This document shows, in pieces, positions 3,485 through 21,625 of a stretch of DNA of 64,000 bases. Position numbers and translations under genes: made by a program. The first letter of the stretch is position 1, and each line of letters starts with the position of its first letter. This DNA is from Candidatus Bathyarchaeia archaeon (GTDB taxonomy: Archaea; Thermoproteota; Bathyarchaeia; Bathyarchaeales; Bathycorpusculaceae), in NCBI GenBank assembly GCA_038883775.1, contig JAVZLM010000006.1, positions 95,544 through 159,543 on the forward strand, written 5' to 3'. The notes beneath the pieces are model-generated. The model had not been told where the DNA came from and ran no database searches. It saw only the letters and a list, made by a program, of their open reading frames with translations.

Positions 3485-3907
3485 ATGATACACGCCCAAC
3501 TACAAATAGTCAAACTAACAGAACTAAAACAACACGAAGAAGTTGACCCTACCCACTTAAAAGAGTTAAAAAAAGAAATAGCCTCAGACAAAATCCTAAA
3601 ATTTGCCATAGTAGCCGACAAAAACACGAACATCATTCTCGATGGCCAACATAGGTTCAACGCTATCAAAGAATTAGGGTACAGCCGTATTCCCGTAGTA
3701 TACGTTGACTACAACTTACCAGAAATAGAAGTTCAAAGCTGGAAAGGCAATCCATATTTGACTAAAAAAGAGGTAATAGAAGCTGGCTTAAGCGGAAGAA
3801 AATTTCCGCCAAAAACCTCAAAACACATGATAAGAATTGGCGGCTCGCTACATCACATATCTGCAATTGAGAAGCGTCTCGACATTCCATTAGAAAAGTT
3901 AAGGTGA
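3485..3907 (+). CDS. ParB/sulfiredoxin-fold protein, SerK/SbnI-like free serine kinase (short form)
   Basis: 'QHEE', 'ILDGQHR', 'VDY...V.SW' and 'TKKEV...G..FPPKTSKH' match SerK-type motifs; overlaps cysteine synthase start (GTGA). Confidence 0.7.
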   Translation: MIHAQLQIVKLTELKQHEEVDPTHLKELKKEIASDKILKFAIVADKNTNIILDGQHRFNAIKELGYSRIPVVYVDYNLPEIEVQSWKGNPYLTKKEVIEAGLSGRKFPPKTSKHMIRIGGSLHHISAIEKRLDIPLEKLR

Positions 3908-14145: not shown

Positions 14146-14699
14146 GATAAACCACGTGCAATCAATCGCGCAGCCCGAAGGGGTTCTGGAATTCTGCCAC
14201 AAAAGCACAAAAAGCGCACAAGGCTGGAGGCCCACCTAACATTTGCGCCTACCGTTTCCATATACAATGGAGCTTCGTCACTTTTGATGTGGATTTTATG
14301 AACTGGGCCAAGCCTTTGAAAAACTTTCCAACGGATTTCCCAATCTTCAAAGTGCCTTTTTAGGGCGCGCCTTACTGCTTTATTGTTTGGTTTTGTTTGC
14401 GCTATTATGATGATTGGTTTTTTGAATCTTTCATGAATTAGCATGGGGTTGATAAGGTTAAAGCCACCATAAGATACGCCCGCCAACAGAACGACATCAA
14501 ATTCCCAATTTTCCAAGATTTTGGCAAGTTTTTCTGTTGCATCTAATCCATCAACCGTTATTTTTGTGACTTTCACATTTTTAATGGTGGCTTGCCTTAG
14601 CAAAACTATGGCAAGAAGTGCTTCACGAGTTATTCCTTTTTGGAAACTTCCGTCTTCAACCCCCACGATTAGCATGTTTTGAAAGGCTTTTCGCCTCAT
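14142..14699 (-). CDS. DUF99 family (endonuclease V-like / endonuclease dU) protein
   Basis: 'GVEDG', 'VDGLDAT', 'GGFN.I', 'IPEPLR.A.LIA'; overlaps the cdc6 3' end. Confidence 0.85.
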   Translation of the reverse strand: MRRKAFQNMLIVGVEDGSFQKGITREALLAIVLLRQATIKNVKVTKITVDGLDATEKLAKILENWEFDVVLLAGVSYGGFNLINPMLIHERFKKPIIIIAQTKPNNKAVRRALKRHFEDWEIRWKVFQRLGPVHKIHIKSDEAPLYMETVGANVRWASSLVRFLCFCGRIPEPLRAARLIARGLS

Positions 14700-15900
14700 A
14701 TTCCACCAGACGCCCAAGTCTAGTGTCATTAGCAAAAACGTCTCTAATAAGAGTGCGAGCTATTTCCAGCCTAATTTTTTTCGTTCTTCCATACCTTCCC
14801 ATACTTATAACCTTAGCATTCACAAGCCCCATAGAATCAAGCTCATTCACCAACGTGCTTAATCGGCGTTGCGTCAAAGGAGTGACGCTCACTTCTCCAC
14901 AAAGCTCCGCATATACATCATATATCTCGCCTGTGATGGCACTATGAATGTTTGCCCTATTCAAATGGTACACGCTTAAAATCACAAGTTTTGAATGCAA
15001 AGTTAAGTTCCGCAGAGCCTCCACAACCCTATTATGTTCAATATGTTTTTCAGCTTCTCGAACATGCTCTTCAGTTACAAAACTCGCCCCTTTCCGTTCG
15101 GCAACTTCTCCAGCAACCCGTAACAAATCTAAGGCCCGTCTAGCATCACCATGTTCCGCAGCTGCCAAAGCAGCGCAAAGGCTTATAGCTGCTTCAGACA
15201 AGGCGCCTTCATAAAATGCTAATTTTGCCCGTTCAAGCAAGATATTGCCCAATTCATTAGCATCATAAGGCCTAAAAACGATCTCCTCTTCGCTTAAAGA
15301 ACTAAAAACTCTTGGGTCCAGAAACTCTTTCAAACGAAGGTCATTAGATATGCCTACAATAGACGCTTTACTACTGCGTAAAGTTTCATTTATTCTTGTT
15401 AGCTCATAAAGGAGGCTGTCTCCGCGCACCTTCACCAAAGCATCAATTTCATCCAAAGCAACAATAAAAATAATTTTTAAAGTATCTAAACCAACTCTGA
15501 ACCTATCAAAAACTTCGCCAACAGACAAACCAGTAAAAGGAACCTGCACGCCTATACTTTGGCATAACCCAGAAAAAACGCGGTATTCAGAGCCAGCCAT
15601 GCGGCAGTTTACGTAACAGAATTTGACAGGAGCGTTAAACTCCTTCGCTTTAGTTTCTAAATGACTTAAAACATATTTTGTTACAGCCGTTTTGCCTGTG
15701 CCAGTTTTTCCATATATAAAAACATTGGAGCTTCTGGATCCTTTTAAAACTGGGGCAACGGTTTCTCCAAGCCTCGTAATTTGTTCTTCTCGATGAGGCA
15801 GTTTATCAGGTAAGTAATCATGCCGCAAGACCTCTCGGTTTCTGAAAATCCTATTGTTGGAAACAAATTTCTTGAACACTTCGTCGAGAATGCTATTCAA
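14656..15900 (-). CDS. cdc6: Orc1/Cdc6 replication initiator
   Basis: 'LPHREEQI', Walker A GKTGTGKT, Walker B LDEID, 'GDARRALDLLR', C-terminal wHTH 'GRYGRTK'. Confidence 0.97.
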   Translation of the reverse strand: MNSILDEVFKKFVSNNRIFRNREVLRHDYLPDKLPHREEQITRLGETVAPVLKGSRSSNVFIYGKTGTGKTAVTKYVLSHLETKAKEFNAPVKFCYVNCRMAGSEYRVFSGLCQSIGVQVPFTGLSVGEVFDRFRVGLDTLKIIFIVALDEIDALVKVRGDSLLYELTRINETLRSSKASIVGISNDLRLKEFLDPRVFSSLSEEEIVFRPYDANELGNILLERAKLAFYEGALSEAAISLCAALAAAEHGDARRALDLLRVAGEVAERKGASFVTEEHVREAEKHIEHNRVVEALRNLTLHSKLVILSVYHLNRANIHSAITGEIYDVYAELCGEVSVTPLTQRRLSTLVNELDSMGLVNAKVISMGRYGRTKKIRLEIARTLIRDVFANDTRLGRLVEYEAKSLSKHANRGG

Positions 15901-16046
15901 ATTGGTCCCTCAGTAAATTTTAGTGGTAAAACCACTCTTTCTGGTAGAAAAAATAAGCTCTGCCATACAGAAAACTAAATGTTCAACACAAAAATCCTAA
16001 AACAAAACTTTCGCACATTACTTCTCTTTATGATTAAGGAAAGGCA

Positions 16047-16070
16047 CACCCCACAATTTCTTCTGGAACT
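16047..16070 (-). promoter_or_regulatory. ORB1 origin recognition box AGTTCCAGAAGAAATTGTGGGGTG
   Basis: Matches archaeal ORB TTCCAnnGGAAA-n-GGGG consensus (one mismatch). Confidence 0.8.
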
Positions 16071-16232
16071 CTGTAAGTTTTAATAATAATTCTTTTAGAT
16101 TTTTGTTTATTTAGAAAGAAAGAAATATACTCTGAAAGGTTAAAAATCACAAAAGTTACTATAATACTTGCTGTAAAAGTTTTTTGATAAATAACTAAAA
16201 AGGCAAACTAAAACACAAGTGAAAAGGAAAAA

Positions 16233-16255
16233 TTTCCAAAGGAAATGAAGGGGTG
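16233..16255 (+). promoter_or_regulatory. ORB2 origin recognition box TTTCCAAAGGAAATGAAGGGGTG
   Basis: ORB consensus with G-string pointing into the AT-rich tract 16256-16475. Confidence 0.88.
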
Positions 16256-16361
16256 CCACTAAAATATAATTAAACATTATAGTATGCTATTATTATTTCA
16301 TTTTATTTTTCTTCTTTATTTTTTCCTGCATATCTCCGTCTAAGAAAATTCTGTTGAATAT

Positions 16362-16671
16362 TTCACAGCAATTCACAAAATGTAAAGACCTTGTGAAATT
16401 AACTTAATAGCGCCTCTTTTAAACCTTCTTAATTCGGATTATTAACTTTTTCTTGTCTCTTTTTTGTGAATTAGTCACCCCTCCGCTTCCAATGGAAATA
16501 AACATTATTCAAGGCTTCTTTTTCTTTTTAAAATTTGGAGAAAATGTGAAGCCTGTAAACTCAAAAACATTAAGAAATTTCCTTCTTTTTCATTTTTCTC
16601 CATTTAATCCGCTTTCTTCTTTTTTCTTTTTTACCATAACAGCTATAACTTGTGAAGTGTAAAATTGTGAA
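16362..16671. repeat. seven TGTGAA/TTCACA hexamers in the right half of oriC
   Basis: At 16362, 16372 (TTCACA) and 16392, 16465, 16545, 16651, 16666 (TGTGAA). Confidence 0.7.
16476..16498 (-). promoter_or_regulatory. ORB3 origin recognition box TTTCCATTGGAAGCGGAGGGGTG
   Basis: Inverted relative to ORB2; the pair flanks the AT-rich unwinding region. Confidence 0.85.
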
Positions 16672-16696
16672 ACACCTACAATGGGTGCTTCCGCTA

Positions 16697-17128
16697 ATGC
16701 CAGCTAAAAAAATGCGCGTAGAACTCTACGATAGTGAGGGCAACAAGTATACCGTGTCCTTTGAAGGTCAGATAACTAGAGAAAAGGCTCTTCGCTTATT
16801 AGACATGGTGGAGCTTTTGGGCGGGGTATCAGCAAGCGAAGGAAATCCGGGAACACCGGTCCCTGTGACGCTCGATCAGCCAAATAAGTATAGCAAAGTT
16901 CGTATGATAATTCAGAAACATTTTCCACTGGTTTGGTTTTCTTCTAGGGATGTTCAGTTAGTTTATGAGCAGGAATTTAAGGAGCCTATAAGTCTTAGCA
17001 CGGTTGCCACATACCTTTATAGAATGGCAAGCAAGGGATTACTTGCTAAAGCTGGGGCTTCTAACCGTTTGAAATACAGGCTGATGCCTACTTATCCACA
17101 AATATTGCCTAAACAACAGATGTCATGA
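16697..17128 (+). CDS. uncharacterised origin-adjacent protein: small N-terminal beta domain, linker, C-terminal winged helix
   Basis: 'KKMRVELYDSEGNKYTVSFEGQITREK' then 'FSSRDVQLVYEQEF.EPISLSTVATYLYRMASKGLL......KYRL' wHTH; GGGTG SD before ATG 16697. Confidence 0.8.
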   Translation: MPAKKMRVELYDSEGNKYTVSFEGQITREKALRLLDMVELLGGVSASEGNPGTPVPVTLDQPNKYSKVRMIIQKHFPLVWFSSRDVQLVYEQEFKEPISLSTVATYLYRMASKGLLAKAGASNRLKYRLMPTYPQILPKQQMS

Positions 17129-17136
17129 TCCCTTTT

Positions 17137-17847
17137 TTATTGGGCTTCTGTTTCCTTCTTTTTTAGAATGTTTTCCATTTCTTTCTTCACATTATATTTG
17201 AATGGGATTTTGCTTGTATCCCTCTCCAGATAACCTCCTTCGTAAAGTTTCTTCATCAACCGCGCTGTGTGCTCTCGGCTGAGTTTGATTCGCTCTTTTA
17301 TTTCTGGTGCGGTTTTAGGGCCTTCAGAAGCCAACATTTCCAGAACCGCCAATTCTGTTTCTGTGAGGGGGGCTAGGGCTTTTTCTCTTTTTATGGGTAT
17401 TGCCGCCTCAATTTTTGCCTCGGGAACAATAGAAAGCCGCCGACTTTGCTCTTCAACTTCCGAAACCTTTAAATTTAACTTTTCAAATGCCGCAGAAAGA
17501 TCACTTACTTTTTCATCAACTTCAACAAATCTTTTTGAAATTTCCTCTTTGTGCTCCAGAACTTTACTTACCTTTTCCTCTAAAGACTGAACCCTCTTAT
17601 GAGTTTCTTCTGCCTTGTTTAGTGCTCTTTCACTTTTTGTGGAAATGGCTTCAACTTTATAAATCACACGCTCCGTCCTTTCGGCTTCCTGCTTTAACTC
17701 TCTATTAAAACTCACCAAAATGTCGCCGATGATTTCTCTTGCCTTTTCATATTCTCTCCGCACCTTTTGCAACTGCCTGTAATACTCGACAGCAGCCCAG
17801 ACGGTTATGACAAGCAAACTTCCAAAAAGAATCAAGAGCGCATCCAT
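17137..17847 (-). CDS. membrane-anchored coiled-coil protein with C-terminal MarR/TrmB-like winged helix
   Basis: N-terminal TM (LLILFGSLLVITVWAAV), ~110-aa heptad-rich helix, wHTH 'LTETELAVLEML..EGPKTAPEI....KLSREHTARLMKKLYEGGYLER'. Confidence 0.85.
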   Translation of the reverse strand: MDALLILFGSLLVITVWAAVEYYRQLQKVRREYEKAREIIGDILVSFNRELKQEAERTERVIYKVEAISTKSERALNKAEETHKRVQSLEEKVSKVLEHKEEISKRFVEVDEKVSDLSAAFEKLNLKVSEVEEQSRRLSIVPEAKIEAAIPIKREKALAPLTETELAVLEMLASEGPKTAPEIKERIKLSREHTARLMKKLYEGGYLERDTSKIPFKYNVKKEMENILKKKETEAQ

Positions 17848-17862
17848 ATAGAGTACCCCACT

Positions 17863-18136
17863 TGTGATTTATATGTGATTACGCCCAATTCAGACATGTT
17901 ACATCACACATCACAGTTTTAACATAGAAGATTTAAAGATTACGGTAAAAAGGAAGCTGTGAAAGTTTCGATGACATCACACATCACAGCTAATAGAGAC
18001 AAATGCTTGCAATCACAAAAATGCACTAAAAGGTCAGCTTTTTTGGTTTTTTGCTTTTTGCGCCTTAATTTGCACTTCAAATTAGCATAGCTGATTAAAG
18101 GTATTTCTCCTTTCTTGTATGTGACTTGTGATGTCA
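17863..18136. repeat. TGTGA(T) repeat array including two identical 16-mers ACATCACACATCACAG and an inverted variant
   Basis: 16-mers at 17901-17916 and 17974-17989; inverted TGTGACTTGTGATGTCA at 18120-18136; singles at 17863, 17874, 17958, 18012. Confidence 0.85.
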
Positions 18137-18613
18137 CGTAAAGCCCTCGGTGGGATTTGAAAGCTTTTTTAGGCTTGTTTCAAGCTCTTCTCTAACCATT
18201 TTGATGAGTTTTAAATGTTCATCAAGTTCGCTGTCCTTGTTTGGTATATCCTTGTATGCTTCCATGAACTCGTGTAATTTATTTGCTATTTCGAGATAGG
18301 GGTCAAGTGTCGTGTCTTCAAACACTCCCAAGTATCCTAAGAGCAATACTGTGTAAATTGATTTTATGACGTTTTCTTTTGCCTGTTTTAAAGTTCTGTT
18401 GAAGGCTCCGCGGCTTATTTTTGCCTTTGATAGTCTTAATCTGGCTTTTTCGTCGTATTTTAGTTGTTTTTCTGAAAAATTTTCAGCCAATATGTCAATA
18501 AGTAACGTTTCAAGCTGAATTTTTGTTAAATGACTATTTTTAGCGAGCATTTTCACAATAGGGTCGTTTAATGCGTTTGTTAACCAGGCTTGGATGTTTT
18601 CTTTAAGCTTCAC
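18134..18613 (-). CDS. uncharacterised helical protein with HTH-like segment
   Basis: 'SHLTKIQLETL...YDEKARLR....ISRGAFNRTLKQAKENV' HTH-like, followed by 'SIYTVLLLGYLG' and a helical tail. Confidence 0.75.
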   Translation of the reverse strand: MKLKENIQAWLTNALNDPIVKMLAKNSHLTKIQLETLLIDILAENFSEKQLKYDEKARLRLSKAKISRGAFNRTLKQAKENVIKSIYTVLLLGYLGVFEDTTLDPYLEIANKLHEFMEAYKDIPNKDSELDEHLKLIKMVREELETSLKKLSNPTEGFT

Positions 18614-18742
18614 ACTTTTCTCTCCACAAACTTGCTGGATGGATACACTTTTGTATACAGGACTATTTTAAATTATTGAGTGCTATGATGAAAAGCATGC
18701 TTTGCTAACACAAACATTTTATGTTAAAGAAAACAGTGTAAG

Positions 18743-19927
18743 ATGAGGGTCCCTTTGGATTCGGACTTTAAGCCCGCAGATCGCCTAAAAGGCATAAAAT
18801 ATTCTGGAATACGCCGCTTTTTCGATATAGCTCAAAAAACGCCGAATGTTATCAATTTAAGCGTCGGAGAACCCGATTTTGTGCCGCCGAAACATGCTTT
18901 GGAGGCTGGATGGCAAGCCATGAAAGAAGGTAAAACCCATTATACACCAACTAATGGCATTCCTGAACTTAGAGAGGCTTTAGCACAGAAAGCCTACCAA
19001 GACTATGGCCTCCACTACGATCCAAACGCTGAAATCCTTGTTACCGCCGGCGGGACTGAAGCTATTTTCTTAGCCATTGCTGGATTAGTGAATCCCGGCG
19101 ATGAAGTGCTTATTCCAAATCCTGGATTTGTTTGTTATGAACCAAGTGTTCTTTTGGCAGGCGGTGTTCCTGTTTCTGTTCCTTTGCGGGAGGAAAATTC
19201 ATTCAAACCTTCTGTTGAGGATGTGATATCGCGTATCACGAAAAAGTCACGTGTGATGATACTTAACTATCCTAACAATCCCACAGGTGCCGTTCTTTCC
19301 CATGATGAGGCAGCTTCTTTAGCAAAAGTTGCTGTAGAACATGATGTGATTGTGATTTCAGATGAGGTTTATGAAAAAATAGTTTACGATGACGCTAAAC
19401 ACTGTTGTTTTGCGGCTTTCCCAGGAATGTGGGAGCGCACCCTAGTGATTAATTCTTTCTCTAAAACTTATGCCATGACTGGTTTGCGTGTTGGATGCAT
19501 TTATGGACCCAAAGAGCTTATGTCTTTTCTTTGGCTTGTCCACCAGTATACGGTTGCCTGCGTAGATAGTCTTGCACAGCATATTGCCTTAGCAGCATTG
19601 AAAGGGCCACAAGATTTTGTTAAGAATATGGTGTGCGAGTTTGACAGGCGAAGGCACTTGGTTCATAAAAGGCTTATGGAAATTGAGGGTTTTAATTGTA
19701 GCCTCCCAAAAGGCGCTTTCTATATGTTCCCAGACATAAAAGCTTTTGGCATGCGTTCAGAGGAGTTTGCTGAGTTCCTTGTGAGAGAGGCGGGAGTTGT
19801 GACCGTTCCAGGGTCTGCTTTCGGCGTTCAGGGTGAAGGTCACATAAGAATGTCTTATGCTGCGACTTACGAAAAATTGGAAGAGGCATTAAACCGCATA
19901 GAAAGGGCTGTTAAAAAGATTAGGTAA
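18743..19927 (+). CDS. class I/II PLP-dependent (aspartate-type) aminotransferase
   Basis: 'GEPDF', 'NYPNNPTG', 'SDEVY', 'SFSKTYAMTGLRVG'. Confidence 0.93.
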   Translation: MRVPLDSDFKPADRLKGIKYSGIRRFFDIAQKTPNVINLSVGEPDFVPPKHALEAGWQAMKEGKTHYTPTNGIPELREALAQKAYQDYGLHYDPNAEILVTAGGTEAIFLAIAGLVNPGDEVLIPNPGFVCYEPSVLLAGGVPVSVPLREENSFKPSVEDVISRITKKSRVMILNYPNNPTGAVLSHDEAASLAKVAVEHDVIVISDEVYEKIVYDDAKHCCFAAFPGMWERTLVINSFSKTYAMTGLRVGCIYGPKELMSFLWLVHQYTVACVDSLAQHIALAALKGPQDFVKNMVCEFDRRRHLVHKRLMEIEGFNCSLPKGAFYMFPDIKAFGMRSEEFAEFLVREAGVVTVPGSAFGVQGEGHIRMSYAATYEKLEEALNRIERAVKKIR

Positions 19928-19933
19928 GTTATT

Positions 19934-20767
19934 TTATAACTCCTCTGCACGCCTTTTAAGTTCGTCGAAGAGTTCTGGGCGCAAATCCCTTAATGTAGGA
20001 ACGAAAGTTTCCACAGGCTTTATGTCCGCATAATCCACATCACACATCACAAGGTCCTCTTCGTCATATTTTGCTTGAGCTAAAACTTTTCCATTAGGCC
20101 CCACAAGTCGACTTCCTCCCCAAAACTGTAAACCGTCTTCTATGCCTACAAGGTTAACATAAGCCAAAAAAGCCGTGTTTTCTATAGCCCTTGCTATGGT
20201 TAATGTCTCAAAAAATTTTTTTCTAATTGCTGGGGATGCAGAAATGCAAACTATTAATTGTGCCCCTTTAAGCCGTGTTAGGCGGCTTACTTCTGGGAAA
20301 AATATGTCATAACATATGATTAAGCCTATTTTTCCAATTTTTGTTTCAAAAACTGCTGTGCTATATCCTGCGCGGAAATATCTTTTTTCTTCAAAAACGC
20401 TGTGAGTTGGGAGATATATTTTTCGGTATTTTCCTATGAAGCCTTCTGGGCCTATGAGAACTGCTGTGTTATAAAGGGTTGCTTTAGTTTTTTCGCTTAA
20501 TTCTGGCATGCCAAAAATAATATGAGCATTTGTTTTTCTGGCTATGTTCTCTAAAGCTTTGACTGAAGGGCCTGGTATTGTTTCTGCTAACTCATATAGT
20601 TCGTCTCTGACCGTATAGCCTGTCAGTGAAAGTTCTGGAAAAATTACGAGATTTGCGTCTTGTTTCTTGGCTTTATTTACAAATTTTTCCATTTTCTTTA
20701 TGTTTGCCTTTTTGTCTCCACGTTTGCAACTGATTTGCGCCAATGCTATCTTAATTTTATTTTCCAT
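19934..20767 (-). CDS. carbon-nitrogen hydrolase (nitrilase family), likely glutaminase partner of NadE
   Basis: Triad motifs 'FPELSLTGY', 'YRKIYLP', 'ICYD'; immediately downstream of nadE. Confidence 0.88.
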   Translation of the reverse strand: MENKIKIALAQISCKRGDKKANIKKMEKFVNKAKKQDANLVIFPELSLTGYTVRDELYELAETIPGPSVKALENIARKTNAHIIFGMPELSEKTKATLYNTAVLIGPEGFIGKYRKIYLPTHSVFEEKRYFRAGYSTAVFETKIGKIGLIICYDIFFPEVSRLTRLKGAQLIVCISASPAIRKKFFETLTIARAIENTAFLAYVNLVGIEDGLQFWGGSRLVGPNGKVLAQAKYDEEDLVMCDVDYADIKPVETFVPTLRDLRPELFDELKRRAEEL

Positions 20768-20785
20768 TTTTATTACGCCCCATTA

Positions 20786-21625
20786 TCAGTAACTTCGGGG
20801 AAGTCTGAAATCCGCTCCCACAGTGCGATACTCAAGCTTAGTTGTTAATAACATTCTCCTTTTATGTTCCGTGGAAAGCCACCGATTTTTTATTCTATCC
20901 ACAAGATTCTTTTCTACACCCAATTGTTGGGCTATGTCTTTTGTTTCCATAAAATGTTCAAGTCCGTAAAGGATAAGGTCTAAAAGGTCATATTTTATGC
21001 CAAGTTCCGTTTCTGCCAGCTGTCCAGGCCATAGGGCGGGGGATGGTGGTTTTGTCAAGATTTCTTTTGGAATCCCTATGTGTTGTGCGAGTTTTCGAAC
21101 TTGTGTTTTGTATAAGTCCATTATTGGCGATATGTCGGCGGCCACGTCGCCCCATTTTGTGAAGTAACCCATCATGGTTTCTGATTTGTCTGAGCTTCCG
21201 CAAACGAGCATATTGTGCCTATTGGCGAAGTAATAAAGGTAAATCATTCGGGTTCTCGCCTTTATATTGCCCTTACACACTTTATCGTTTGGGTCAAAAT
21301 TTGGTATTGACTTATATAGTGTTTCCAAAGTGGGGGTAATATCTATCATTTTTGTTTTGAACCCAAACTTTTCAGCCACAAGTTTCGCGTGTTCAACATC
21401 CTTTTTGCTGTAGGTTTCCTTTTCTGGTAATATGAGCCCTAAAACTTTTTCGCCGCCAATGGCTAGAGTAGAAAGAGCAGCTACTGTGGAGCTGTCTAGA
21501 CCTCCAGATAATCCTAAAACTACGCCCTTCACTTTGGATTTTTCCACATAATCTCTTATGAAACGCCTTATTTTCATCTCTACTTCTTGAAAGTCCAAAT
21601 CTAGAACTGAAGGTTTTAATTCCAA
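20786..21625 (-). CDS. nadE: NAD+ synthetase
   Basis: 'GLSGGLDS', 'NIKARTRM', 'GYFTKWGD', 'KPPSPAL', 'HKR'. Confidence 0.95.
   Translation of the reverse strand: MELKPSVLDLDFQEVEMKIRRFIRDYVEKSKVKGVVLGLSGGLDSSTVAALSTLAIGGEKVLGLILPEKETYSKKDVEHAKLVAEKFGFKTKMIDITPTLETLYKSIPNFDPNDKVCKGNIKARTRMIYLYYFANRHNMLVCGSSDKSETMMGYFTKWGDVAADISPIMDLYKTQVRKLAQHIGIPKEILTKPPSPALWPGQLAETELGIKYDLLDLILYGLEHFMETKDIAQQLGVEKNLVDRIKNRWLSTEHKRRMLLTTKLEYRTVGADFRLPRSY

What the first reader, a model, noticed from the sequence alone, without database searches (positions are those of the whole stretch)
19222..20051. The same repeat recurs inside neighbouring coding sequences
Seen: a perfect 15-mer ACATCACACATCACA at 20037-20051 inside the nitrilase gene (encoding VMCDV), and four TGTGAT at 19222, 19252, 19345 and 19351 (last two tandem) inside the aminotransferase gene. 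Inference: like parS or ram sites, binding sites may be embedded in ORFs within a few kb of oriC. The hexamers alone could reflect Asp/Val/Ile codon usage, but the exact 15-mer is harder to explain by chance.
Basis: partly seen in the sequence, partly recalled or inferred. Interest (0 to 1): 0.55.

Follow-up and report, generated by a model that had tools for sequence, protein, structure and literature searches.

The report
Binding-site array embedded in aminotransferase gene
In this uncultured archaeon the short repeats inside the aminotransferase gene belong to a conserved DNA-binding-site array that evolution keeps even where the gene itself has been lost, whereas the perfect 15-base copy inside the neighbouring nitrilase gene shows no sign of being selected.

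Summary
The exact 15-mer occurs 3 times in the 1.69-Mb genome, all within 2.15 kb.

The window is from a Bathyarchaeia genome. Its real oriC, with three ORB-like boxes, lies at 16048-16497 next to cdc6.

The four TGTGAT in the aminotransferase gene (aat) belong to a conserved array of GTGAY/RTCAC pentamers, here called module 2.
- It exceeds the codon-shuffled expectation (P=0.008 and 0.0024).
- It covers two of the three most synonymously constrained places in aat.
- After at least 3 independent losses of aat, the same pieces persist as non-coding DNA.
- In another family the array sits inside a different gene, nadE.

Module 2 and a larger intergenic array (17863-18137) flank a conserved gene of unknown function, p159. 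The arrays co-occur with the neighbouring membrane-anchored winged-helix protein, the inferred binder.

The nitrilase 15-mer is the weaker case. It has no synonymous constraint (z=-0.15, rank 145 of 273) and is present in only 13 of 90 orthologues.

Function, whether looping operator or origin tether, is inferred only.

The parts
19223..19257 (+). Core of module 2, embedded in aat codons 161-172. It has three elements: a P1-like GTGATATCGC (19223-19232, a degenerate form of the family consensus GTGAYRTCAC), ATCAC (19235-19239), and the near-palindrome P2 GTCACGTGTGAT (19246-19257).
   Evidence: This is the only match in the genome to a strict 35-nt pattern. The same pattern occurs at the homologous aat position in 23 of 31 aat-bearing loci, and in non-coding DNA in 10 of 60 aat-lacking loci. 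The two 5-codon windows over it rank 2 and 3 for synonymous conservation (z=3.59 and 3.02).
19345..19356 (+). In most relatives it takes the form GTGAY-N6-GTGAY with an 11-bp period.
   Evidence: It aligns with the 11-bp-spaced GTGAT repeats of the non-coding module. The GTGAY-N6-GTGAY form is found in 60 of 60 aat-lacking loci and 16 of 31 aat-bearing loci, against 0 in 541 kb of flanking control DNA. Synonymous constraint here is weak (z=0.6-0.8).
20037..20051 (+). Exact copy of the tandem-heptad site ACATCACACATCACA, inside the nitrilase-family gene (codons L-V-M-C-D-V on the minus strand).
   Evidence: There is no synonymous constraint (z=-0.15, rank 145 of 273, n=90). A heptad pair is kept at this position in 13 of 90 loci. 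The nit gene shows no pentamer enrichment in 89 tested loci (0 at P<=0.01).
17863..18137 (.). Primary intergenic array (IG1) between the winged-helix gene and p159. Its elements are: TGTGAT-N5-TGTGAT (17863-17879); site A (17901-17915); a TATA-like box GATTTAAAGATTACGGT (17930-17946); site B (17974-17988); ATCACA (18012-18017); and the inverted site C, TGTGACTTGTGATGTCAC (18120-18137), which overlaps the p159 stop codon.
   Evidence: In 89 of 90 loci there are exactly two tandem heptad pairs (A to B spacing 67-74 bp) plus one inverted pair at the p159 stop.
17137..17847 (-). Gene for a 236-aa protein with an N-terminal hydrophobic helix, a coiled coil and a C-terminal winged helix (called MarR236 here). 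It is the inferred binder of the GTGAY sites.
   Evidence: Pfam MarR 31.0 bits and TrmB 27.7 bits, both above cut-off. NCBIfam Lrs14 and Sta1 hits are below cut-off. The N-terminal hydrophobic window is present in 71 of 71 orthologues. It co-occurs with the sites across the class.
18134..18613 (-). p159, a conserved 159-aa helical protein of unknown function, flanked by IG1 and module 2.
   Evidence: No Pfam or NCBIfam family. Found in 120 of 151 Bathyarchaeia genomes sampled. The AlphaFold model has low confidence (pLDDT 58).
18743..19927 (+). Class I/II aminotransferase gene (aat), host of module 2.
   Evidence: It is present between p159 and nit in 31 of 91 loci and absent in 60.
19934..20767 (-). 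Carbon-nitrogen hydrolase (nitrilase-family) gene, host of the 15-mer.
16048..16497 (.). Probable oriC: three ORB-like boxes of the form TTCCA-N3-GAA-N4-6-GGGGT, at 16048-16068 (-), 16234-16254 (+) and 16477-16497 (-), between orc1/cdc6 (14656..15900, -) and p158 (16652..17128, +).
   Evidence: These are the only 3 matches in the genome. In relatives every match lies in the cdc6-p158 spacer, and 17 of 19 loci have at least one. The GC-skew minimum is near 17-18 kb.

Best explanation
SHOWN. The four TGTGAT hexamers in the aminotransferase gene are part of a real cis-acting DNA element, module 2. It is about 135 bp of GTGAY/RTCAC pentamers in a fixed grammar: a 10-bp palindrome, a pentamer, a 10-12-bp palindrome, then 11-bp-spaced direct repeats. 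It is written into the reading frame of aat through unusual synonymous codons. Selection keeps it independently of the protein.

Module 2 is the distal partner of a larger intergenic array (IG1, 17863-18137). Together the two arrays flank the conserved gene p159. The first composite site of module 2 is roughly an inverted copy of IG1 site C.

INFERRED.
- The sites are bound by the adjacent membrane-anchored coiled-coil/winged-helix protein (MarR236). I put this at about 0.6.
- Site A sits about where the transcription start of that protein's own gene should be, downstream of a conserved TATA-like box. IG1 would then act as an autoregulatory operator array.
- Module 2 would act as an auxiliary operator that joins IG1 by protein-mediated looping around p159, in the manner of an operator lying inside a structural gene. 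I put the operator/looping reading at about 0.45, against 0.2 for an origin-tether or segregation reading.

The exact 15-mer in the nitrilase gene is most likely an unselected coincidence (about 0.8). It is produced by an old V-[I/M/T]-C-D-V peptide and its codons. It might still be bound in the cell simply because it is identical to sites A and B.
For: (1) Codon-shuffle excess in aat. TGTGAT: 4 against 1.06+-0.91 (P=0.008) and against 0.63 (P=0.0024). GTGAY/RTCAC pentamers are enriched at P<=0.01 in 18 of 21 aat genes tested. My script dropped 10 of the 31 because the extracted CDS held a non-sense codon. The control gene nit gave 0 of 89 at P<=0.01.

(2) Synonymous constraint. With 31 aat orthologues and 433 distant pairs, windows 19241-19255 (z=3.59) and 19214-19228 (z=3.02) rank 2nd and 3rd of the non-overlapping 5-codon windows, behind only the first 5 codons. 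The window-centred test agrees (z=4.6 for 19244-19258).

(3) A natural experiment.
- 60 of 91 loci lack aat. On a nit+p159+nadE tree these fall into 3 separate groups (supports 0.94, 0.94 and 0.996; 3 Fitch changes).
- In all three groups the 281-645-bp gap keeps the motif pieces next to the nit 3' end. These pieces align with aat 19220-19262 and 19340-19362, while the rest of aat is gone.
- Element counts in aat-lacking, aat-bearing and 541 kb of control DNA: palindrome 1 in 55/60, 22/31 and 21 hits (14 of them one nadE peptide site); palindrome 2 in 46/60, 28/31 and 3 hits; 11-bp repeat in 60/60, 16/31 and 0 hits.
- The gap module is not coding. Element spacings vary by 1-2 nt in all classes mod 3, and 31 of 60 have stops in all six frames.

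(4) Independent embedding. In another order (family f24) nadE lies upstream of p159 and carries the palindromes inside its CDS in 16 of 18 loci. Of 9 of the 19 f24-type loci I tested, 1 was skipped and 6 of 8 had pentamer excess at P<=0.01 in codons 51-140.

(5) Binder.
- Among 20 distant loci, 14 have GTGAYRTCAC-type sites at the p159 3' end. A MarR236 homologue was found in 13 of those 14: 12 in the locus and 1 about 7 kb away on the same contig.
- Of the 6 loci without sites, 5 genomes (94-98% complete) gave no homologue at E<=0.01 and no composite site genome-wide. The sixth gave only a 14.9-bit hit.
- Its winged helix matches Pfam TrmB. The TrmB-family regulator TrmBL1 binds TATCAC-N5-GTGATA (passages of PMC4706686), which shares the pentamer.

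(6) The 15-mer. It has no constraint. It is lost by amino-acid change or by TGT>TGC in most relatives, including a same-genus genome.
Against: No binding, transcription or looping data exist. The binder, the promoter and the looping are all inferences.

The phyletic co-occurrence counts related genomes that are not independent. One site-bearing genome (G116, 86% complete, with a withheld stretch beside p159) gave no MarR236 match.

In the window's own genus the first palindrome of module 2 is degenerate (GTGATATCGC). The direct-repeat part shows only weak synonymous constraint (z=0.6-0.8).

Module 2 is 0.5-0.6 kb from the p159 promoter and inside a gene that it does not obviously regulate. That fits an architectural role as well as a regulatory one.

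Against calling the 15-mer chance:
- It is identical to sites A and B and otherwise unique in the genome.
- Only 8 loose heptad pairs lie elsewhere in 1.69 Mb, so one landing in nit has P of about 0.004.
- Given the peptide, the codon-shuffle probability is about 0.01.
- It is kept at the same position in 13 of 90 loci from several genera.
Confidence: 0.55

Rival explanations
1. The arrays are chromosome-organising sites rather than operators. The membrane-anchored winged-helix protein binds IG1 and module 2 and tethers the origin-proximal region to the membrane, or marks it for segregation.
For: The arrays lie 1.4-3.3 kb from the only ORB-like boxes of the genome. The gene order cdc6 - oriC - p158 - [MarR236] - p159 recurs across the class. 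The candidate binder has an N-terminal hydrophobic helix in 71 of 71 orthologues and a long coiled coil. The composite sites are essentially confined to this one locus in the genome. Module 2 is kept wherever it falls, in aat, in nadE or in non-coding DNA, which fits a role not tied to a particular promoter.
Against: Site A and the 11-bp repeats sit between a conserved TATA-like box and the start codon of the MarR236 gene. That is the usual place of an archaeal repressor site. There are only two clusters about 1.2 kb apart, not a dispersed set around the origin. No ParB_N protein above the Pfam cut-off was found in the genome (23.6 against 26.3 bits). Lineages with p159, p158 and cdc6 but without MarR236 or sites exist, so the system is dispensable for the origin.
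Confidence: 0.2
2. The nitrilase 15-mer is also a selected, functional fourth high-affinity site in this genus and some other lineages.
For: It is identical to sites A and B and otherwise unique in 1.69 Mb. P is about 0.01 under codon shuffling. A heptad pair is kept at the same codon positions in 13 of 90 loci from several genera, sometimes through different codons (ATG, ATA, ACA).
Against: Synonymous conservation is average (z=-0.15, rank 145 of 273 with 90 sequences; z=2.2, rank 28 of 273 in the window-centred test on 20 relatives). It is lost in 77 of 90 loci, one of them a same-genus genome through a synonymous TGT>TGC change. It is absent from all 53 members of the large aat-lacking clade. 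The nit gene has no pentamer enrichment. All copies sit at one homologous position, so a single ancestral coincidence suffices.
Confidence: 0.17
3. All the in-gene motifs, in aat as well as nit, are by-products of amino-acid sequence and codon usage and have no function.
For: Conserved peptides can create such motifs. One nadE peptide gives GTGATGTCAC at the same place in 14 loci. TGTGAT is not enriched in the window as a whole.
Against: The aat motifs exceed the codon-shuffle expectation. They are synonymously constrained. They persist in non-coding DNA after 3 independent aat losses. They recur inside an unrelated gene in another family.
Confidence: 0.04
4. The conserved pieces act as RNA (a structure in the aat mRNA or a small RNA) or encode a small peptide, not as protein-binding DNA.
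For: In two aat-lacking loci (L036, L038) a 52-residue open frame runs across the module. No transcript data exist to exclude an RNA.
Against: The palindromes have 0-2-nt centres and so cannot form hairpins. Spacings shift by 1-2 nt, and 31 of 60 modules have stops in all six frames. Pentamers occur in both orientations with 7- and 11-bp periods, as expected for sites on duplex DNA. Rfam found nothing in 15800-20900.
Confidence: 0.03

Closest known systems
Auxiliary operators inside structural genes (for example the second lac operator within lacZ, or the internal gal operator); recalled from general knowledge, not from a call
   Same: A copy of the operator motif lies inside the coding sequence of a neighbouring gene. 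It sits some hundreds of bp to about 1.3 kb from a primary operator cluster at a promoter. This arrangement is classically used for repression by DNA looping.
   Different: Here it is an array of at least 5 pentamers about 135 bp long, not one site. The host gene is not the regulated gene. The array is kept after the host gene is lost and can sit in different genes. The organism is an archaeon, and the regulator is a putative membrane-anchored protein. Neither binding nor looping has been shown.
Thermococcales glycolytic motif bound by TrmBL1 (TATCAC-N5-GTGATA; passages of PMC4706686)
   Same: It shares the ATCAC/GTGAT half-site. The neighbouring regulator's winged helix matches Pfam TrmB (27.7 bits, cut-off 25.6). 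Sites placed downstream of the TATA box act as repressor sites in that system.
   Different: The spacing and grammar differ: 0-2-nt spacers, plus 7- and 11-bp direct repeats. The protein has no sugar-binding domain; it has a hydrophobic helix and a coiled coil in front of the winged helix. There is no regulon, because the composite sites are confined to one locus.
   Same: The sites are near the origin, are tolerated inside ORFs, and the candidate binder could link DNA to the membrane.
   Different: There is no ParB_N protein above cut-off. There are only two clusters, both around one gene. The pentamer arrays are not a single long palindrome. One cluster overlaps a likely promoter.
Archaeal origin recognition boxes (ORB) bound by Orc1/Cdc6
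   Same: Repeated elements within a few kb of cdc6.
   Different: The ORB-like boxes of this genome are a different sequence and lie at 16048-16497. The GTGAY arrays are separate. They are absent from some lineages that keep cdc6 and the ORB region.

Membership tests
ORF-embedded auxiliary operator | Sequence related to a primary operator cluster at a nearby promoter | tested here: met
   The same GTGAY/RTCAC pentamers occur in both arrays. The first composite site of module 2 (GTGAYRTCAC-NN-RTCAC) is about the reverse complement of IG1 site C.
ORF-embedded auxiliary operator | Lies inside the coding sequence of a neighbouring gene | tested here: met
   19223-19257 and 19345-19356 lie inside the aat ORF 18743..19927.
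ORF-embedded auxiliary operator | Maintained by selection independent of the encoded protein | tested here: met
   Synonymous constraint. Retention after 3 independent aat losses in non-coding form.
ORF-embedded auxiliary operator | Bound by the same regulator as the primary operator, and contributes to repression by looping | not testable with these tools
   No binding or expression data are available. No RNA holder was listed for the locus.
parS/ParB centromere | A ParB (ParB_N domain) protein is encoded, usually near the sites | tested here: not met
   The only match in the genome is 23.6 bits against a cut-off of 26.3. It is a 140-aa ORF at window 3485-3907, 14 kb away.
parS/ParB centromere | Sites match the parS palindrome | not tested
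   I know the parS consensus only from memory and did not compare it. The elements here are 10-12-bp palindromes and direct repeats of a pentamer.
parS/ParB centromere | Origin-proximal location | tested here: met
   The ORB-like boxes at 16048-16497 are 1.4-3.6 kb from the arrays and the 15-mer.
TrmB-family operator (TGM type) | Regulator with a TrmB-type winged helix | tested here: met
   PF01978 scores 27.7 bits (cut-off 25.6). PF01047 MarR scores higher at 31.0 bits.
TrmB-family operator (TGM type) | Palindrome TATCAC-N5-GTGATA | tested here: not met
   The half-site pentamer is shared, but spacers are 0-2 nt and there are 7- and 11-bp direct repeats.
TrmB-family operator (TGM type) | C-terminal sugar-sensing domain in the regulator | tested here: not met
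   The only domains found are a hydrophobic N-terminal helix, a coiled coil and a C-terminal winged helix.
Archaeal ORB (Orc1/Cdc6 boxes) | Matches the ORB-type repeat beside cdc6 | tested here: not met
   The ORB-like pattern has 3 hits in the genome, all at 16048-16497 and none in the arrays.

The most novel reading that the evidence does not exclude
Bathyarchaeia carry an origin-linked DNA-tethering module. A membrane-anchored coiled-coil/winged-helix protein clamps two pentamer arrays that flank the conserved gene p159, about 1.5-3 kb from oriC. This would fix the origin region to the cell envelope or mark it for segregation. It would be an archaeal counterpart of RacA/ram or ParB/parS that uses unrelated parts. 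Its sites would be important enough to be written into whichever enzyme gene lies there (aat or nadE) and to outlive that gene.
Probability: 0.15. Interest if true: 0.85.

Novelty: new variant of a known kind. Interest (0 to 1): 0.62.

Why it matters
This is an unusually clean natural demonstration of dual coding in an archaeon. One stretch of DNA serves both as protein code and as a binding-site array. Evolution has tested this directly: the gene was deleted at least three times and the sites were kept, and the same array was written into a different gene in another lineage.

It also defines a conserved, uncharacterised gene set beside the replication origin (p158, a membrane-anchored winged-helix protein, and p159) in Bathyarchaeia, an abundant uncultured class. 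For that set there is now a specific, testable DNA target.

For genome annotation it shows that an exact repeat copy, the 15-mer, can be weaker evidence of function than degenerate hexamers once orthologues are consulted.

Tried and rejected
- Rfam scan of 15800-20900 at E<=1: no match.
- A small ORF starting at the ATG of site B is 39 codons here but is cut short in the closest relative. I read this by eye and dropped it.
- p159 structure: the AlphaFold2 model from 32 sequences has mean pLDDT 58.4, so I did no fold search.
- Profile search of p159 against PDB sequences: one irrelevant hit at E=0.15.
- Pfam and NCBIfam: nothing for p159 or p158.
- ESM Atlas: only 'hypothetical protein' clusters of Bathyarchaeota. 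A Sigma70_r4-bearing cluster scored 0.78, which is a lead only.
- Literature: 'Bathyarchaeota' + 'origin of replication' + 'Cdc6' gave 0 papers. 'Bathyarchaeia' + 'replication origin' gave 3 papers that looked unrelated from their titles and abstract openings. I therefore found nothing in print on this locus with these two searches.
- Expression: no RNA holder listed. Two coded runs hold 7% of the sampled words, and I did not lay them.
- Earlier findings of this scan: none.
- I looked for a link between the nit 15-mer and degeneration of palindrome 1 in this genus. The 15-mer position also carries the motif in loci with an intact palindrome, so no link is apparent.
- The idea that the intergenic array is itself the origin is rejected, because the ORB-like boxes are elsewhere.
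Full report
**1. What is there**

The window comes from a Candidatus Bathyarchaeia genome, according to the record titles of close relatives. The assembly has 28 contigs and 1.69 Mb.

Around the finding the genes are as follows:

| Gene | Coordinates | Strand | Note |
|---|---|---|---|
| orc1/cdc6 | 14656..15900 | - | |
| AT-rich spacer | 15901..16651 | | 750 bp |
| p158 | 16652..17128 | + | no family |
| MarR236 | 17137..17847 | - | 236 aa: N-terminal hydrophobic helix, coiled coil, C-terminal winged helix (MarR 31 bits, TrmB 27.7 bits) |
| IG1 spacer | 17848..18133 | | 286 bp |
| p159 | 18134..18613 | - | no family |
| aat | 18743..19927 | + | class I/II aminotransferase |
| nit | 19934..20767 | - | carbon-nitrogen hydrolase |
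| nadE | 20786..21625 | - | NAD synthase |

This gene order is kept in 19 of 19 family loci that reach far enough; a 20th locus, L027, is cut at a contig end.

The spacer beside cdc6 holds the only three ORB-like boxes of the genome, at 16048, 16234 and 16477. In relatives every match to the same pattern lies in that spacer. That spacer is therefore the probable oriC, and the finding lies 2.7-3.6 kb from it.

**2. The observation**

- The exact 15-mer occurs three times in the whole genome: twice in IG1 (17901, 17974) and once in nit.
- Given the protein sequences, synonymous codon shuffles give the 15-mer in nit with P=0.010-0.011. They give at least 4 TGTGAT in aat with P=0.008 (within-gene permutation) or 0.0024 (genome codon usage). 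GTG is a minority valine codon, at 20%.
- The densest 150-bp cluster of the hexamer in the genome is IG1 (7 hits). The second densest is aat 19222-19356 (4 hits). Nothing else exceeds 3.

**3. The intergenic array (IG1)**

IG1 is a deeply conserved set of sites built from the pentamer GTGAY/RTCAC. In 89 of 90 loci it has:

- exactly two tandem heptad pairs on one strand (A and B, 67-74 bp apart);
- one inverted pair fused to the palindrome GTGAYGTCAC, overlapping the p159 stop codon (site C);
- 11-bp-spaced GTGAT repeats next to the MarR236 start codon;
- a conserved TATA-like box between A and B.

Read on the minus strand, the box lies about 20-30 nt upstream of site A. From this I infer that site A covers the transcription start of the MarR236 gene. 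No transcript data support that inference.

**4. The aminotransferase hexamers are part of a second, selected array (module 2)**

*(a) Density and position in relatives.* In 20 relatives the hexamer density is 2.30 per kb in aat, against 0.46 per kb in other flanking DNA. The hits fall at homologous positions.

*(b) A shared 35-nt pattern.* The pattern is GTGAYRTCRC, 1-3 nt, a pentamer, 5-9 nt, then TCACRYGTGAT. It is found once in the genome, at 19223-19257. It occurs at the same place in 23 of 31 aat-bearing loci.

*(c) Synonymous constraint.* I used 31 aat orthologues and only pairs with less than 60% synonymous codon identity (433 pairs). The two windows over the module (19241-19255, z=3.59; 19214-19228, z=3.02) rank second and third of all non-overlapping 5-codon windows, behind only the first five codons. 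A window-centred version of the test gave z=4.6. The 19345/19351 pair is only weakly constrained (z=0.6-0.8).

*(d) The decisive evidence: gene loss with site retention.*
- 60 of 91 distinct loci have no aat between p159 and nit. They have a gap of 281-645 bp instead.
- On a tree of nit+p159+nadE these loci form three separate groups. One is a clade of 53 whose sister (L048) has aat. One is L049/L119, sister to the window's genus. One is L034/L040, sister to L035. Supports are 0.996, 0.94 and 0.94, and parsimony needs three changes.
- In all three groups the gap keeps the motif-bearing pieces next to the nit 3' end. MAFFT aligns them to aat 19220-19262 and 19340-19362, with the 50-83 nt between them deleted and no other aat sequence left.
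- Element counts:

| Element | aat-lacking loci | aat-bearing loci | 541 kb control flanks |
|---|---|---|---|
| palindrome 1 | 55 of 60 | 22 of 31 | 21 hits (14 from one conserved nadE peptide) |
| palindrome 2 | 46 of 60 | 28 of 31 | 3 hits |
| 11-bp repeat | 60 of 60 | 16 of 31 | 0 hits |

- The gap module is not a gene. Its spacings vary by 1-2 nt over all classes mod 3, and 31 of 60 have stops in all six frames.

*(e) A second host gene.* In a different order (family f24) nadE lies divergently upstream of p159. It carries the palindromes inside its coding sequence in 16 of 18 loci that have it, encoded as PERDVTPERDIMDVM and variants. I tested 9 of the 19 f24-type loci; one was skipped for a stop or N. 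In 6 of the remaining 8, the pentamer count in codons 51-140 exceeds synonymous permutation at P<=0.01.

*(f) Whole-gene permutation test.* The same test is positive at P<=0.01 in 18 of 21 aat genes. Ten of the 31 were dropped by my script because the extracted CDS contained a non-sense codon. It is positive in 0 of 89 nit genes, which serve as a control.

**5. The nitrilase 15-mer**

In 20 relatives the peptide here varies: V-[M/I/T/V/F]-[C/G/A]-[D/E/T]-[V/I]. The exact 15-mer is kept in only two relatives. A same-genus genome breaks it by a synonymous TGT>TGC change.

Over 90 loci a heptad pair survives at this one position in 13. All 13 are in the aat-bearing part of the tree plus L119, and none is in the 53-member clade.

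Synonymous conservation is average: z=-0.15, rank 145 of 273. The window-centred test on 20 relatives gave z=2.2, rank 28 of 273, with an sd of z of 1.9.

A residual oddity remains. Only 8 loose heptad pairs lie outside this locus in 1.69 Mb. One falling in an 0.83-kb gene next to the arrays therefore has P of about 0.004, and here the copy is exact. I read it as an old coincidence of a beta-strand peptide with its codons. I give about 0.17 to its being a selected site. It may still be occupied in vivo.

**6. Who binds, and what for (inference)**

p159 homologues occur in 120 of 151 sampled Bathyarchaeia genomes. I inspected 20 distant loci.

- 14 have GTGAYRTCAC-type sites at the p159 3' end. 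A MarR236 homologue was found in 13 of these genomes: 12 within the locus and 1 about 7 kb away on the same contig. The exception is G116, which is 86% complete and has a withheld stretch beside p159.
- Of the 6 loci without sites, 5 genomes (94-98% complete) gave no homologue at E<=0.01 and no composite site anywhere. The sixth gave only a 14.9-bit hit.
- The same query found the protein in 5 of 5 site-bearing positive-control genomes.

These genomes are related, so the counts overstate independence. p159 and p158 are present with or without sites, so they are not sufficient as binders.

The winged helix of MarR236 matches the TrmB family. The TrmB-family regulator TrmBL1 recognises TATCAC-N5-GTGATA (passages of PMC4706686), which shares the pentamer.

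In G000 the composite sites are almost confined to this locus. The factor therefore looks dedicated to this locus rather than global.

My preferred mechanism has three parts. MarR236 oligomers bind IG1 and repress the protein's own promoter. Module 2, whose first composite site is roughly an inverted copy of site C, joins IG1 by looping across p159. The 7- and 11-bp periods place the sites on one face of the helix.

The main rival is an architectural role: tethering or marking the origin-proximal DNA. That reading fits the membrane anchor and the indifference of module 2 to its host gene.

**7. Comparison and novelty**

Operators and centromere sites inside ORFs are known in bacteria; I recall this from general knowledge, not from a call. 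The kind of thing is therefore not new.

What is new:
- the pentamer-array grammar;
- its persistence through three gene losses, and its embedding in two unrelated enzyme genes;
- the association with a membrane-anchored winged-helix protein and two uncharacterised conserved genes beside oriC in an uncultured archaeal class.

My two literature searches found nothing on it. I rate it a new variant of a known kind, with interest 0.62.

Noticed in passing
window 16048-16068 (-), 16234-16254 (+), 16477-16497 (-): Three ORB-like boxes (TTCCA-N3-GAA-N4-6-GGGGT) lie between cdc6 and p158. They are the only three in the 1.69-Mb genome. In relatives every match to the pattern is in the same spacer (17 of 19 loci have at least one). 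This is the probable oriC.
   Followed up: partly
window 18641-18658: A separate palindrome, GGATACACTTTTGTATAC, lies just upstream of the p159 start codon. It recurs almost unchanged in front of p159 in distant Bathyarchaeia, including lineages without the GTGAY arrays (seen in the sequences). It is probably the operator of another factor, perhaps p159 or p158 itself.
   Followed up: no
window 18743-18838: The first ~30 codons of aat show the strongest synonymous conservation in the gene: z=4.66 for codons 1-5, plus windows at 18776-18790 and 18800-18814. This could reflect a translation-start constraint or a further embedded element facing the p159 promoter.
   Followed up: no
window 20108-20128: The strongest synonymous conservation in the nitrilase gene is at QFWGGSR (z=4.3-5.6). 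It is unrelated to the 15-mer and unexplained.
   Followed up: no
window 3485-3907 (+): A 140-aa ORF has a sub-threshold ParB_N match (23.6 bits, cut-off 26.3) and a DGQHR motif. It is the only ParB_N-like hit in the genome.
   Followed up: partly
nadE orthologues in loci L031, L032, L038, L046, L048, L055, L066, L067, L069, L077, L079, L082, L103, L104 (offset 538-544 from the gene's 3' end): A conserved peptide in nadE yields GTGATGTCAC (or a variant) at one homologous position in 14 loci. This is a caution that conserved peptides alone can mimic the palindrome.
   Followed up: partly
window 16652-17128 (+): p158, directly beside the ORB-like boxes, has no Pfam or NCBIfam family. Its C-terminal third looks like a winged helix by eye. 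It keeps its place next to cdc6 across the class.
   Followed up: no
loci L153 and L165: In two distant lineages a ~775-aa gene sits between the MarR236-like gene and p159. I read it from its first residues as carbamoyltransferase HypF-like and did not test this. GTGAY sites are then found at its 3' end, next to the p159 stop.
   Followed up: no
G000 contig C16 around 1372: The third densest TGTGAT/ATCACA cluster of the genome (3 hits in 150 bp). Not examined.
   Followed up: no
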